A stretch of 63,669 nucleotides of DNA, filler included, from Collodictyon triciliatum (Eukaryota): assembly GCA_043381765.1 (NCBI GenBank). It is 20 parts of 20 records of this genome, joined end to end, with 100 filler letters (N's around TTAATTAATTAA, not from the genome) between each part and the next. Parts side by side here need not be neighbours in the genome. Positions count along the whole stretch, not along the records: positions 55,297 to 58,544 come from JBHJMP010007576.1; positions 58,645 to 61,891 come from JBHJMP010007577.1; 18 more parts are not named here. One strand, given 5' to 3'. Position 1 is the first letter of the stretch. Every line of letters starts with the position of its first letter. Shown here piece by piece: positions 55,544 to 58,645 of the stretch. The position numbers and the translations under genes were made by a program. The notes under the pieces were generated by a model. That model had not been told where the DNA came from. It saw only the letters and a list, made by a program, of their open reading frames with translations, and made no database searches.

Positions 55544-58334
55544 TTATCCTTGCTTGGCGTCTTGAATGACTTTGCAAATCGAACGGGCTTGAAACCCTGT
55601 CAGATTAAAGGGTTGGCTAGATAGGGCTTCGGTATTGAGCTCGAGGAAATCTTTCCCAGTAAACCTAAACTCTACAATCACGTTGATAAACTTTCGAATA
55701 ATATTCCTGTCCTCTAAATATCGAATAATTTCGTCATTGTTCATTTCTACAACACACATTTGGGTTCCCTCTGTCTCGAGAGTCTCTTCCACTACGGCGG
55801 GGGTATCCGACTGTAATAATTCGTGAGGAGCATCGAGGATGACCTTGTCGAGATTGCTTTCGTTTTTCTTGCAAGCTTTCAGAAATACCGCCAATAAACG
55901 GACTTCTTTAGAACTGAGACCAAAGTTTGAATTGGTCAAATCTTCCTCATCGTAACGCAGTAATTCGCGGACTGAGACAGGTGGCTGTTGCTTCCTTATC
56001 CTATCCACCATAGCAACGTCAAACCCTTTGTACTGAAGCAATTCAATTAATTCCCCGGGATACATGTCCAGCAGATTCGGATATCTGAAAGGAGCAATTG
56101 CATCAAGTTCATGGATGCTCAAGTCCACATGGTTAGACTCGCGAAATATTTGAAGTAAATGCAATATTTGTTCCAAGGATGCCCTCATTTGATAATTCTG
56201 CCTCCAGCAGAGCTGTATGATTCGTTGGAGAATCCGGGGGCTTTGTGCTGGAATAGTTGGCCTTACACCAGATGATACTAAATACATGGGAAACTCGATG
56301 GCATCAAAAGGCTTCTCGTTTGACAGCATGGAGAAAATGAGCAACCCAACTGGATAAATATCGCTAGGAGCCCCAGCATGTCCTTTCATAAGGTCTCTAC
56401 CACCTGCATCCAATTGTTTGGCGACGATATCATGTATCTCTGGTCCTTGCCAATGAGGGGTGCCTGCTTGTAATTGTTTGAGTTTGGACGATATAGGAAA
56501 TGGTGATGCATTGCCCTCTACTTTTTTGGATGACAGTCCAAAATCAGCAATTTTTGCCACATTTTTTACTATTAAAATATTGGCAGCCTTTAAATCCCGA
56601 TGATAATATCCCAAGTCGTGCATGTGCTTGAGTCCTTCACATATGTGAATTGAATACTGAACCACATCGCTTAGGGATAGATATTCATTTGCTTCCTTCT
56701 TGGATTTTATCAGTCTATCTAAAGGCGTATCAGCAAGCTCTAAAATAATTACGCATGATTCCTTCTCAATCATGGCATCAAAAATAGGAAGAATATTAGG
56801 ATGCTTGCATATTTGCATAGTTTTGATTTCATTTGCCACCATTTCAAATAATTTAAGGGACGAGCGTTTCATGGATGCCAGATCGATAAACTTTACAGCG
56901 ACTTTTTTCGAATTCCAAACTCCTTCATAAACAAATCCAAATCCACCTTGGCCCAACTTTGTTCCGAGGGTATATTCCGATCTCTCAAAAGAGGTAACAC
57001 TTTCTTTCAGTATGGATACTAGTAGGATTTTTTTTATGAGTATAGATAAGATAGTCATAATGAATGAATTAATAAAAAAAAAAAAATATGACTCAAATAG
57101 TCTGTTTTAAGTGCAAGTTCTTACGTTCAGCCTCATCTTGCTTGTGATCAACTATTTTTTATAAAGCTTAGTAATTTCAAACTAATTTACTAATAGTTTT
57201 GTTAAAAAAAAAAAAGAGAGAGAGAGAACTCTAAAATGTTTTTCGATAAAGAGATTTTGCATACTGACCGTATCCTCTATCTGCTTCACTAGATTCATGT
57301 TGTTCTTTGCATTGTTCTATTACTGACATAATTGTTATTGATTGCATATTAGTTAAATTAAATGGCGATTTGCAAAGAGTTTCCATATTCAGTGCAAATA
57401 AATCACTGCCGGTGTATTGAAGTTCATGAATTAAGGAGATAAATGAAGGCATCAGCCTTTTCTGCTCCAAAAACGAAACCAACTCTTCAGTGCTCATCTC
57501 TTTGGCTGTCTTTCTTACCTTCAAATAAGGTATTCCTGGGTCCTTTTGGGCTTTCTCGATTTTGGATGTGATTTCTTTTGCATTAATCCTATGTTGGGTG
57601 TTGTATTCCAGGCAATCGATAATGATTTTCGCCAATCTGTAGGGGCACATGGGTGGTATTTCAGGTGTCTTTTTGTTTTGGATGGCCGCTACAGTATCTT
57701 CTCTGCTTACATTATCGTATGGATATTGCCCTGATACCATGGACCAAAGAACAAGTCCATATGAGTATACATCTCCCGCTGGTCCTTTGTTCTCTTGTGC
57801 TTTTATCGATTCAGGTGCCGTCCAACAAATACTTTTATCTGCAGTTGTCTCAGAGACTACAAATGCAAATTTTGATGGACAAAGTATATTTGCTACCTTC
57901 GCAATACCTGACACGAACAAGACACTATGTGTACTGAAATTGCCGTGGTGGAAACCCACTCCATGCAAAAACATAAAGGCTTGGATGATGTCATATCCAT
58001 AAGTAAGAACTTGGCTTATTTCAAAGCAACCCTTTTCTTTAATGACGGAGTACATGTCTGATTCTGCATATTCAGATATTACCGCAAATTCACCGCATCG
58101 ATATTCAGCCTCGTAAATGTTGTGTATGTTTGGATGACGTAATAATTTCATGTGTCCTACGCGTTCAATGTCGATGGCAAGTTCTCGTGTATCTTTGACA
58201 ACCGACACGCGGAGTTGTTGTCTAGTTTTTCTTGTATTGTAAATTTTGTAGTCGATAGAGGAGAATATGAACTGGCTTGATGTATCAGACTCTAAGTCGA
58301 CAAGGTCTTCAAACTTGGGTATTTCTTGCGGCAT
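55544..58334 (-). CDS. Tandem pseudokinase-SAM-kinase-SAM-SAM protein; exons >=58334-57269, 57151-57125, 57018-55544
   Basis: Two phase-1 GT-AG introns (57268-57152 and 57124-57019) and a 27-nt exon join the 367-aa and 504-aa ORFs in frame. The first domain has HGN and no DFG or Gly-loop. The second has GQGGFG, VAVK, HRDLKAAN and DFG. Confidence 0.8.
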
Positions 58335-58645
58335 CGTTCCTTTGGTAAAAATAAATGAATTATGTATTTTATTGAATCAAATAATTCTTTTCTTGTGTAC
58401 ACTTTATCAATAAGGACTTTACGGGGGGGGGGGGGGTTTTTTTTTTTTTTGGATTTTAAAAAAAAAAAAATTAAAAAAATTTTTTTTTTTTTTTGGTGAC
58501 TAAAAATAGTTTTTAAAAATTTCGCATTTTTTATAAATAAATGANNNNNNNNNNNNNNNNNNNNNNNNNNNNNNNNNNNNNNNNNNNNTTAATTAATTAA
58601 NNNNNNNNNNNNNNNNNNNNNNNNNNNNNNNNNNNNNNNNNNNNC

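What the first reader, a model, noticed from the sequence alone, without database searches (positions are those of the whole stretch)
55544..58340. Hidden single gene: pseudokinase-SAM-kinase-SAM-SAM joined by a 27-nt microexon
Seen: the two neighbouring kinase ORFs join in frame via donor gtcagt (57268), microexon 57151-57125 (VDHKQDEAE), donor gtaag and acceptor ctactag (57019); all junctions are phase 1. Domain 1 lacks the Gly-loop and DFG and has HGN in place of HRD, while domain 2 is catalytically intact. One ~70-aa SAM-like domain follows the pseudokinase and two follow the kinase. Known: HGN pseudokinases placed before an active kinase occur in JAKs (JH2-JH1), and pseudokinase-kinase pairs form plant tandem-kinase resistance proteins. 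Inference: an independently evolved autoregulated tandem kinase with SAM oligomerisation modules, an architecture I do not recognise. An AG acceptor at 58340 suggests further upstream exons.
Basis: partly seen in the sequence, partly recalled or inferred. Interest (0 to 1): 0.78.

Follow-up and report, generated by a model that had tools for sequence, protein, structure and literature searches.

The report
Spliced dead-kinase/live-kinase gene with three SAMs
Two neighbouring kinase reading frames in this protist contig are one spliced gene, joined through a 27-base microexon, that encodes a dead kinase, a working kinase and three SAM interaction domains; this layout was not found elsewhere, but it is built from ordinary signalling parts.

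Summary
On the minus strand, exon 58334-57269, microexon 57151-57125 and exon 57018-55544 join in frame (all phase 1) into an 855-codon ORF. A contig from coded run X1, about 99% identical to the window, carries exactly these two junctions with the 27-nt microexon between them.

Domain 1 is a kinase fold that has lost the Gly-loop, the HRD Asp (HGN), the catalytic Asn and DFG (NIL). Domain 2 keeps every catalytic motif.

All three ~70-aa domains are SAM folds:
- SAM3: Z 10-11.5 to solved SAMs.
- SAM2: Z up to 9.5 in a search of 48,161 chains.
- SAM1: 39% identical to SAM3.
- Pfam's SAM models miss all three.

The two halves resemble two subfamilies of a rare kinase-SAM family whose other members carry LRRs in front, which points to a gene fusion. 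No fused ortholog turned up in the databases or papers searched.

Autoregulation and SAM oligomerisation are inferred; neither was tested.

Caveat: the window is a chain of unlinked ~3.25-kb contigs. Neighbouring genes therefore mean nothing, and the 5' end may lie off the contig.

Verdict: a real gene and a new variant of a known kind, of moderate interest.

The parts
57269..58334 (-). Coding exon 1 (355 full codons plus 1 base): ATG at 58334-58332, dead kinase domain, SAM1 and the start of the linker; ends in phase 1
   Evidence: Sequence and ORF. X1 contigs lie on 57269-57383, 57771-57969 and 58011-58225.
57540..58277 (-). Pseudokinase domain (about residues 20-265 of P0001): Gly-loop SSIDYK, HGN for HRD, S for the catalytic Asn, NIL for DFG; APE and DVYSYG are kept
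   Evidence: Pfam PK_Tyr_Ser-Thr E 9e-28, matching the profile only from position 48. Alignments A1 and A5.
57303..57500 (-). SAM1 (P0001 residues 279-344)
   Evidence: 39% identical to SAM3 over 66 residues, E 2e-14. 43% identical to the SAM of P0147. Nearest named ESM Atlas clusters are SAM_2/SAM_1, score 0.91. Pfam SAM_3 reaches only E 0.034, below its cut-off.
57152..57268 (-). Intron 1, 117 nt, gtcagt...aatag, GC 0.23
   Evidence: Removed in X1 contig record 4.
57125..57151 (-). 27-nt microexon, phase 1 to phase 1, coding nine residues of an acidic linker
   Evidence: Present between the two junctions in X1 contig record 4, with 2 A>G differences on the coding strand that change 2 of the 9 residues.
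57019..57124 (-). Intron 2, 106 nt, gtaaga...ctactag, GC 0.23
   Evidence: Removed in X1 contig record 4.
55544..57018 (-). Last coding exon: rest of the linker, active kinase, SAM2, SAM3 and stop codon TAA at 55546-55544
   Evidence: X1 contigs lie on 55542-55827, 56176-56637, 56644-56817 and 56855-57018.
56159..56974 (-). Active kinase domain (P0002 residues 15-286): GQGGFG, VAVK (K42), E63, HRDLKAAN, DFG
   Evidence: Pfam Pkinase E 3e-41 over profile positions 1-259. Alignments A1 and A6. Best named relatives are plant STY13/HT1-type TKL kinases at 25-27% identity.
55865..56059 (-). SAM2 (P0002 residues 320-384), five helices
   Evidence: AF2 model of SAM2 alone: pLDDT 81.2, pTM 0.71. Foldseek top hits are SAM domains with TMt 0.7-0.82. 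VIA search of 48,161 chains puts SAMD1, liprin, PHC3, Scm and SARM1 SAMs on top at Z 9.5-8.4.
55547..55759 (-). SAM3 (P0002 residues 420-490), five helices
   Evidence: AF2 tail model with pLDDT 93-97 over this part. VIA Z 10-11.5, rmsd 1.4-1.7 A over 67-74 residues to PHC3, Scm, Ph, SARM1 and CNK SAMs.

Best explanation
Shown: this is one protein-coding gene with three coding exons on its contig. It encodes an 855-residue soluble protein, in this order: a catalytically dead kinase domain; SAM1; an acidic linker of about 35 residues, nine of them supplied by a 27-nt microexon; an intact TKL-like Ser/Thr(/Tyr) kinase; SAM2; SAM3.

Inferred origin: a fusion of two paralogous units of a rare, lineage-restricted kinase-SAM family. 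The front unit looks like the single-SAM subfamily and the back unit like the double-SAM subfamily. The other family members carry LRRs (one also an SH3) in front of the kinase. The two introns and the microexon lie where the space between two genes would have been.

Inferred mechanism: the back kinase is the only catalytic output. The three SAM domains bring copies of the protein, or paralogues, together so that the live kinase can trans-phosphorylate. The dead kinase-SAM unit acts as a built-in regulatory or scaffold partner, in the place that the LRR sensor takes in paralogues. I give the gene structure and domain calls about 0.9, the fusion origin about 0.6 and the regulatory mechanism about 0.35.
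For: Gene structure:
- The exons join in frame, with GT..AG introns of 117 and 106 nt.
- An X1 contig carries both junctions and the microexon.

Dead versus live kinase:
- Both halves match Pfam kinase models.
- In A5, P0001 is the only one of 12 rows that deviates at the HRD Asp, the catalytic Asn and the F and G of DFG.
- No Lys aligns with the beta3 Lys in either alignment: R42 in A5, S44 in A1.
- Domain 2 has every nearly invariant catalytic residue of A6.

SAM folds: plus weak profile hits to solved SAMs (2dkz E 0.016, 1v85, 3bs5).

Family:
- A full HMMER search of 1.84 billion representatives with the SAM2-SAM3 tail gave only 9 hits. Eight are real, and each places the match at the C-terminal end; six of the eight carry a recognisable kinase domain or fragment directly before it, P0141 is a tail-only fragment, and P0140 has only the kinase's last ~60 residues.
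- P0003 is LRR-kinase-SAM-SAM and aligns to 96% of P0002.
- P0001 is colinear with the single-SAM members: P0143 at 29% over 321 residues, E 8e-46, against 3e-19 for P0002.
- P0001 shares the single-SAM members' D/NPG-P...K-x-M linker before the SAM and lacks the post-APE insert that P0002 shares with P0003 and P0144.
- A second family member in the window (41478-39677, minus strand) is LRR-kinase-SAM.

Tree: the best ML tree puts domain 1 with the single-SAM clade (support 78/80.6) and domain 2 with the double-SAM clade (65/0).

Mechanism by analogy: the kinase activity of PfTKL3 depends on its SAM domain (PMC2933843; I read the abstract and section headings). JAK JH2-JH1 regulation is recalled knowledge.
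Against: - RNA support is a single low-depth contig (3.68) from one run whose RNA label is only a guess. The contigs do not reach 58226-58334 and leave 57384-57770 uncovered.
- Left unspliced, exon 1 runs to a stop 12 codons after the donor (57231). An in-frame ATG at 57058 lies 13 codons before the last acceptor. Separate products are therefore possible as well.
- The kinase tree does not resolve the origin: domain 1 has a branch length of 5.7, the supports are not significant, and a domain 1 + domain 2 clade (internal duplication) is not rejected (p-AU 0.26).
- No binding, oligomerisation or activity was tested.
- Pfam SAM models do not reach threshold on any of the three domains.
Confidence: 0.7

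Rival explanations
1. There are two separate genes: a pseudokinase-SAM gene that ends at the stop at 57231, and a kinase-SAM-SAM gene that starts at the ATG at 57058. The spliced contig would then be a minor read-through (conjoined) transcript.
For: - Other family members end a few residues after their SAM.
- Exon 1 read through its donor stops after 12 codons.
- An in-frame ATG and an open frame extend 30 codons upstream of the last acceptor.
- Only one contig, at depth 3.68, shows the junctions.
Against: - Both junctions are canonical GT..AG, keep the frame and include a microexon, which a chance read-through would not be expected to give.
- No laid contig covers the 57019-57268 interval unspliced (contigs show presence only).
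- My rough estimate for an open 30-codon stretch in 23% GC sequence is about 6% by chance, so that hint is weak.
- The gap between the stop at 57231 and the ATG at 57058 is only about 170 nt.
Confidence: 0.13
2. The front unit is a decaying relic with no function, carried along in front of a normal kinase-SAM-SAM protein.
For: - All catalytic motifs are lost.
- It has the longest branch in the tree, 5.7 changes per column.
- No close homolog exists in any database searched; the best is 27-32% identical.
Against: - 355 codons are open with no stop or frameshift.
- Fold-defining kinase motifs are kept: HPN, APE, DVYSYG and the alphaH-I Arg.
- SAM1 is as well conserved as the SAMs of active paralogues, at 35-43% identity.
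- Both differences from the X1 strain in this exon are synonymous, though two sites are too few to weigh.
Confidence: 0.07
3. The gene is incomplete at its 5' end. LRR-type exons lie on another contig and splice into the AG at 58341-58340 in phase 1, so the real protein would be LRR-pseudokinase-SAM-kinase-SAM-SAM. This is compatible with the best explanation and would add to it.
For: - The contig ends 210 nt upstream of the ATG, in homopolymer runs.
- The paralogues P0003, P0145 and the window's own second member have LRRs before the kinase.
- The AG, preceded by a T-rich tract, would give phase 1 like the other junctions.
Against: - An ATG stands 5 nt after that AG, and an in-frame stop lies 14 codons upstream.
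- No RNA contig reaches the site.
- The intron before the kinase exon of the window's other family member is phase 0 by my reading, so no shared phase rule supports it.
Confidence: 0.25

Closest known systems
LRR-kinase-SAM(-SAM) proteins found here: P0003, P0144, P0140/P0141 (double SAM); P0142, P0143, P0145, P0147 and the window gene 41478-39677 (single SAM)
   Same: They have the same TKL-like kinase followed directly by the same SAM type(s). P0002 aligns to P0003 over kinase, SAM2 and SAM3 (29% identity, 96% coverage). P0001 aligns colinearly to P0143 and P0145.
   Different: Where the N-terminus is present they have LRRs (P0145 also an SH3) in front of a single kinase. None has a second kinase domain. 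All are unnamed transcriptome or metagenome predictions.
JAK family, JH2 pseudokinase followed by JH1 kinase
   Same: A dead kinase sits N-terminal to a live one in a single chain. From memory, the JH2 catalytic loop also reads HGN.
   Different: This protein has no FERM or SH2-like region (Pfam). The live domain is closest to TKL Ser/Thr kinases, not tyrosine kinases. A SAM domain and a linker sit between the two kinase domains. Whether the two domains contact each other is untested (one search was not folded).
Plant tandem kinase proteins (WTK1/Yr15, RPG1, Pm24)
   Same: They are soluble two-kinase proteins with one putative pseudokinase. They arose several times by duplication or by fusion of kinases of different subfamilies (PMC6170490; passages read).
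   Different: WTK1 is kinase first, then pseudokinase, built from RLK-type domains with no SAM. Here the order is reversed and three SAMs are present. An immune role is not implied.
SAM-bearing TKL kinases of Plasmodium: PfTKL3 and the pseudokinase PfpTKL
   Same: These are protist TKL-group proteins that pair a SAM with a live kinase (PfTKL3, whose activity depends on the SAM) or with a dead kinase that acts as a scaffold (PfpTKL). Sources: abstracts of PMC2933843 and PMC6544628.
   Different: In PfTKL3 the SAM is N-terminal (abstract). The live and dead forms are separate proteins, not one chain. No sequence relationship was tested here.
Kinases with a C-terminal SAM (ZAK, ASK3, Eph receptors) and tandem-SAM proteins (SARM1, liprin-alpha, caskin)
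   Same: The SAM2 model aligns to the SAMs of ZAK (Z 7.6), ASK3 (7.1), EphA5/EphA2 (6.3/6.2), SARM1 (8.6), liprin-alpha (9.2) and CASKIN2 (6.7). The order kinase then SAM is the same.
   Different: The likeness is of fold only, at 8-26% identity. None of these pairs a tandem SAM with two kinase domains.
Naegleria pseudokinase-kinase-SAM gene
   Same: It shows the same theme in another protist lineage: a dead kinase, a live kinase and a SAM.
   Different: It has one SAM at the end and none between the kinases. No shared sequence words were found with P0002. I did not check that note.

Membership tests
Eukaryotic protein kinase fold (Pfam PF00069 / PF07714) | Significant match to the kinase-domain profile above the gathering score | tested here: met
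   Domain 1: 97.7 bits (cut-off 23.1), profile positions 48-257. Domain 2: 142 bits (cut-off 31.7), profile positions 1-259.
Catalytically competent protein kinase, domain 2 | Gly-loop GxGxxG, beta3 Lys, alphaC Glu, HRD Asp, catalytic-loop Asn and DFG Asp all present | tested here: met
   G22/G24/G27, K42, E63, H139-R140-D141, N146 and D158-F159-G160 align with the nearly invariant columns of A6. Activity itself was not assayed.
Catalytically competent protein kinase, domain 1 | The same six motifs | tested here: not met
   SSIDYK has no Gly. R42 or S44 stands at the beta3 Lys. HGN replaces HRD, S137 replaces Asn and NIL replaces DFG. The domain is therefore a pseudokinase.
SAM domain (sterile alpha motif) | Compact five-helix bundle that superposes on solved SAM domains over the whole domain | tested here: met
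   SAM3: Z 10-11.5, rmsd 1.4-1.7 A, 67-74 residues aligned; all 50 listed entries are SAM domains or SAM-containing proteins. SAM2 alone: Z 9.5-8.3 for the top 14, and the top 28 of 48,161 chains are all SAM/PNT. SAM1 is inferred from 39% identity to SAM3 and from ESM Atlas SAM clusters at 0.91.
SAM domain (sterile alpha motif) | Match to a Pfam SAM profile above its gathering score | tested here: not met
   The only hit is SAM_3 on SAM1, at E 0.034 and 14.5 bits against a cut-off of 22.6. SAM2 and SAM3 have no SAM hit. These are divergent SAMs recognised by fold, not by current profiles.
Polymerising SAM (Ph/TEL/SARM1 type) | Complementary mid-loop and end-helix surfaces that give head-to-tail oligomers | not tested
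   The top fold matches include polymerising SAMs, but no interface analysis or multimer model was made.
JAK family | FERM and SH2-like receptor-binding region before JH2-JH1, with a tyrosine-kinase JH1 | tested here: not met
   Pfam finds no FERM or SH2. The nearest named relatives of domain 2 are TKL Ser/Thr kinases. Only the pseudokinase-then-kinase order is shared.
Plant tandem kinase proteins | Two RLK/Pelle-derived kinase domains and no other domain | tested here: not met
   Three SAM domains are present. Plant hits to domain 2 are STY13/HT1-type kinases at 25-27% identity. The definition is taken from PMC6170490.
TKL group of protein kinases | Groups with TKL kinases in a kinome-wide classification | tested here: inconclusive
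   The best named hits are TKL-Pl-4/STY13/HT1, and the catalytic loop reads HRDLKAAN. No classification against a curated kinome set was run.

The most novel reading that the evidence does not exclude
This would be an independently evolved JAK-like switch coupled to SAM assembly. The dead kinase-SAM unit docks on the live kinase and holds it off. SAM1 and the SAM2-SAM3 pair then drive head-to-tail assembly, with itself or with LRR-bearing paralogues, which releases the inhibition and allows trans-phosphorylation. In that reading the dead unit replaces the LRR sensor of its paralogues as the input module.
Probability: 0.2. Interest if true: 0.6.

Novelty: new variant of a known kind. Interest (0 to 1): 0.4.

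Why it matters
- It shows that a reading of raw sequence can recover a microexon-joined gene that ORF-based annotation would split in two.
- It adds an independent case, from a barely sampled protist lineage, of a pseudokinase placed in front of a live kinase. That layout is otherwise known from JAKs, GCN2 and, in reverse order, plant tandem kinases.
- It uncovers a small family of kinases with divergent SAM domains that Pfam's SAM models miss.
- If the dead unit really regulates the live one, this would be a compact system for studying how pseudokinase control and SAM-driven assembly combine.
- As it stands, the protein is a lineage-specific shuffle of ordinary signalling domains with no functional data.

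Tried and rejected
- RNA runs: no RNA holder is listed on record. X1 is labelled 'RNA?' by guess, and X2 and X3 (same study) laid nothing.
- Whole genome: none is held for this window, so other family members and the upstream exon question could not be pursued.
- Complex prediction of pseudokinase (A5, 1-270) with kinase (A6, 1-295): not folded by the tool, job counted, no verdict.
- Orthologs of the fused form: P0002 near lengths, P0001 longer, P0001 near. These returned only generic kinases plus P0003.
The single-protein scan gave 21 loci of generic kinases, at 24-29% identity over long matches or 47-53% over short catalytic-loop stretches. I did not study them further.
- Pfam on the SAM regions: below threshold. 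The sub-threshold nSTAND_NTPase4 hit on SAM3 (20.2 bits against a cut-off of 27) was set aside.
- Kinase-domain tree for duplication versus fusion: unresolved. Rows were 21 sequences that I chose. P0142 and P0147 are partial domains.
- Earlier scan notes by sequence and by place near the finding: nothing.
- Paper searches for this architecture: 0 papers for 'pseudokinase' + 'SAM domain' + 'tandem kinase'; 0 for 'pseudokinase domain' + 'SAM domains' + 'protist'; 6 papers for 'two kinase domains' + 'sterile alpha motif', none about such a protein judging by titles and abstract starts.
- Neighbouring genes as context: rejected, because the window is an artificial chain of contigs.
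Full report
**What the window is.** The 63,669-base window is not one stretch of chromosome. It is a chain of 20 pieces joined by 100-base linkers (44 N, TTAATTAATTAA, 44 N). Eighteen pieces are about 3.25 kb long, in falling order of length. The finding lies on its own 3,248-base contig, 55297-58544, and fills most of it. 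Three things follow. The neighbouring genes say nothing about this one. The Cys-repeat gene that starts at 58645 is not its divergent neighbour. The 5' end of the gene could lie off the contig. No whole genome is held for this window.

**The observation.**
- On the minus strand an ORF opens with ATG at 58334 and runs to 57231. A second ORF runs from 57106 to the stop at 55546-55544.
- Joining the three exons by coordinates gives 2568 nt, that is 855 codons and one terminal stop.
- The introns are 117 and 106 nt, GT..AG, GC 0.23. Leaving the microexon out also keeps the frame.
- By my reading, two introns in another gene of the window are 70 and 133 nt. The two short introns are therefore typical in size, and a single 250-nt intron would be long. 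That reading is unverified.

**RNA evidence.**
Its 'RNA' label is a guess.
- Six of its contigs lie on the gene, five at 99% identity or more and one at 95-99%.
- Record 4 (306 nt, depth 3.68) lies on 56855-57018, then carries 27 letters, then lies on 57269-57383.
- Those 27 letters are the reverse complement of the microexon with two A>G changes on the coding strand. The changes alter two of its nine residues.
- Both junctions and the microexon therefore exist in a spliced molecule of a near-identical strain. The precise loss of two GT..AG introns is itself the best sign that this contig comes from RNA.
- Limits: there is one contig, at low depth, from one study. Nothing covers 57384-57770 or 58226-58334. 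Contigs cannot show how common the spliced form is.
- The seven other listed differences are all transitions of mixed direction, three synonymous and four not. They look like strain differences, not editing.

**The two kinase domains.**
- Pfam matches both halves. The first half (P0001) matches from profile position 48 onwards; the second (P0002) matches the whole profile.
- In alignments with relatives (A1; A5), domain 1 has SSIDYK where the others have GxGxFG.
- It has no Lys at the beta3 position (R42 or S44, depending on the alignment; K47 lies 3-5 residues on).
- It has HGN for HRD, Ser for the catalytic-loop Asn and NIL for DFG.
- It keeps HPN, APE, DVYSYG and the conserved Arg of the C-lobe.
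- It is the only one of the 12 rows of A5 that deviates at the HRD Asp, the catalytic Asn and the F and G of DFG.
- Domain 2 has GQGGFG, VAVK, the alphaC Glu, HRDLKAAN and DFG. Its best named relatives are plant STY13/HT1-type TKL kinases at 25-27% identity.
- The first domain is thus a pseudokinase, and the second should be active.

**The three ~70-residue domains.**
- Pfam does not call them SAM. The only hit is SAM_3 on the first, at E 0.034, below its cut-off.
- A profile of the family against PDB sequences gives weak hits, three of the top five being SAM structures: 2dkz at E 0.016, then 1v85 and 3bs5.
- An AlphaFold2 model of the 191-residue tail, built from an 11-row alignment (A3), has mean pLDDT 82.8 and shows two five-helix bundles.
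- Foldseek's top hits to that model are SAM domains. In the VIA second look, all 50 listed entries are SAM domains or SAM-containing proteins. SAM3 scores Z 10-11.5 at rmsd 1.4-1.7 A over 67-74 residues.
- That list barely tested SAM2, so I folded SAM2 alone (pLDDT 81.2, pTM 0.71).
- Foldseek again puts SAM domains first, with TMt 0.70-0.82.
- A search of 48,161 PDB representatives that does not depend on Foldseek puts SAM/PNT domains in all of the top 28 places, Z 9.5 down to 6.6. These include the SAMs of the kinases ZAK, ASK3 and EphA2/A5.
- The tool warns that Z below about 13 can be a common arrangement for helical bundles. The uniformity of the hit list and the full-domain coverage are what carry the call.
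- SAM1 is 39% identical to SAM3 over 66 residues (E 2e-14). Its nearest named ESM Atlas clusters are SAM_2/SAM_1, at 0.91 with 171 shared features; 23 of 30 hits belong to that set.

**The family and the likely origin.**
- A full HMMER search of 1.84 billion representative proteins with the SAM2-SAM3 tail found only nine proteins. One of them (P0146) is a spurious repeat protein.
- All eight real hits have the match at their C-terminal end. Six of them carry a recognisable kinase domain or fragment directly before it. P0141 is a tail-only fragment with no kinase, and P0140 has only the kinase's last ~60 residues.
- They fall into two types. The double-SAM type comprises P0003, P0144 and the fragments P0140 and P0141. 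The single-SAM type comprises P0142, P0143, P0145 and P0147.
- Where the N-terminus is present it holds LRRs (P0003, P0145; P0145 also has an SH3).
- The window itself holds another single-SAM member on a different contig. It starts at ATG 41478, has an LRR exon (Pfam LRR_8, E 2e-12), then a kinase-SAM exon that ends at 39677.
- P0002 aligns with P0003 across kinase, SAM2 and SAM3 (29% identity, 96% coverage). It shares P0003's insert after APE and the CWRQNY motif.
- P0001 aligns colinearly with the single-SAM members: P0143 at E 8e-46 against 3e-19 for P0002. It shares their D/NPG-P...K-x-M stretch before the SAM.
- This points to a fusion of one unit of each type, with the front unit then losing catalysis.
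- The kinase tree only leans that way. The best tree joins domain 1 to the single-SAM clade (78/80.6) and domain 2 to the double-SAM clade (65/0). Domain 1 has a branch of 5.7 changes per column, and a domain 1 + domain 2 clade is not rejected (p-AU 0.26).
- Two traces fit an origin from two adjacent genes. Exon 1 read past its donor stops after 12 codons, about where paralogues end. An in-frame ATG (57058) lies 13 codons before the last acceptor. Both could be chance.

**How it most likely works.**
- Shown: one transcript joins both halves; the front kinase lacks the catalytic residues; the back kinase has them; three SAM folds are present.
- Inferred: the live kinase is the only catalytic output. 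The SAMs bring molecules together, and the dead kinase-SAM unit is a built-in regulator or scaffold in the place the LRR region holds in paralogues.
- The microexon supplies nine residues of an acidic linker of about 35 residues between SAM1 and the live kinase. Two of the nine differ in the X1 strain, which suits a spacer.
- Precedents: PfTKL3 needs its SAM for activity, and PfpTKL is a SAM-bearing TKL pseudokinase proposed as a scaffold (abstracts). JAK JH2 regulating JH1 is recalled knowledge. Plant tandem kinases formed repeatedly by duplication or fusion (passages of PMC6170490).
- My attempt to test contact between the two kinase domains was not folded by the tool, so nothing can be said either way.

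**Comparison and novelty.**
- This is not a JAK: there is no FERM or SH2, and the kinase is TKL-like.
- It is not a plant tandem kinase: the domain order is reversed, the domains are not of RLK type, and SAMs are present.
- It is a member of the small LRR-kinase-SAM family found here, but the only one seen with two kinase domains.
- No protein with this layout appeared in three word-indexed protein searches, the full HMMER search or the metagenome contig scan.
- The paper searches named above found no description of it.
The theme therefore recurs in protists.
- I rate it a new variant of a known kind, of moderate interest. Its functional reading remains a hypothesis.

Noticed in passing
whole window; linkers at 3262-3361, 6624-6723 ... 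61892-61991: The window is an artificial chain of 20 pieces. Eighteen are about 3.25 kb long, in falling order of length, joined by 44 N + TTAATTAATTAA + 44 N. Adjacency of genes across linkers is meaningless.
   Followed up: yes
window 39677-41478 (-), contig 38555-41803: A second member of the kinase-SAM family. It starts MGN (a possible myristoylation start, by eye), has an LRR exon (Pfam LRR_8 E 2e-12), a second exon with the LPCWNN..KPW motif shared with P0003 and P0145, then a kinase-SAM exon (the 2-kb bin 40001-42000 that covers its 5' half has GC 0.49). The introns of 70 and 133 nt are my reading and are not checked against RNA.
   Followed up: partly
window 58645-61891 (+): This contig is one open frame from end to end. 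It encodes 24 matched stretches of the Ephrin_rec_like (GCC2_GCC3) Cys-rich repeat, E 4.6e-176. It is a fragment of a very large repeat protein.
   Followed up: partly
window 42938-45151 (-): A 738-residue open frame, cut by the contig end, with no Pfam match at E <= 0.001.
   Followed up: no
window 56003-56048 / 56176-56637: X1 contig record 2 joins 56176-56637 (minus) to 56003-56048 (plus), an inverted joint with 5 shared letters. It is probably a library or assembly artefact.
   Followed up: no
window 37222-38454 (+) and 29284-29712 (+): On other contigs there are a WD40-like repeat ORF that ends in long SK/SQ dipeptide runs and a further kinase fragment. Both were seen only in the ORF list.
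   Followed up: no
P0147, P0148, P0149, P0153 (relatives): Several relatives with otherwise intact motifs have HGD instead of HRD in the catalytic loop. The HGN of domain 1 may therefore descend from an HGD-type ancestor.
   Followed up: no
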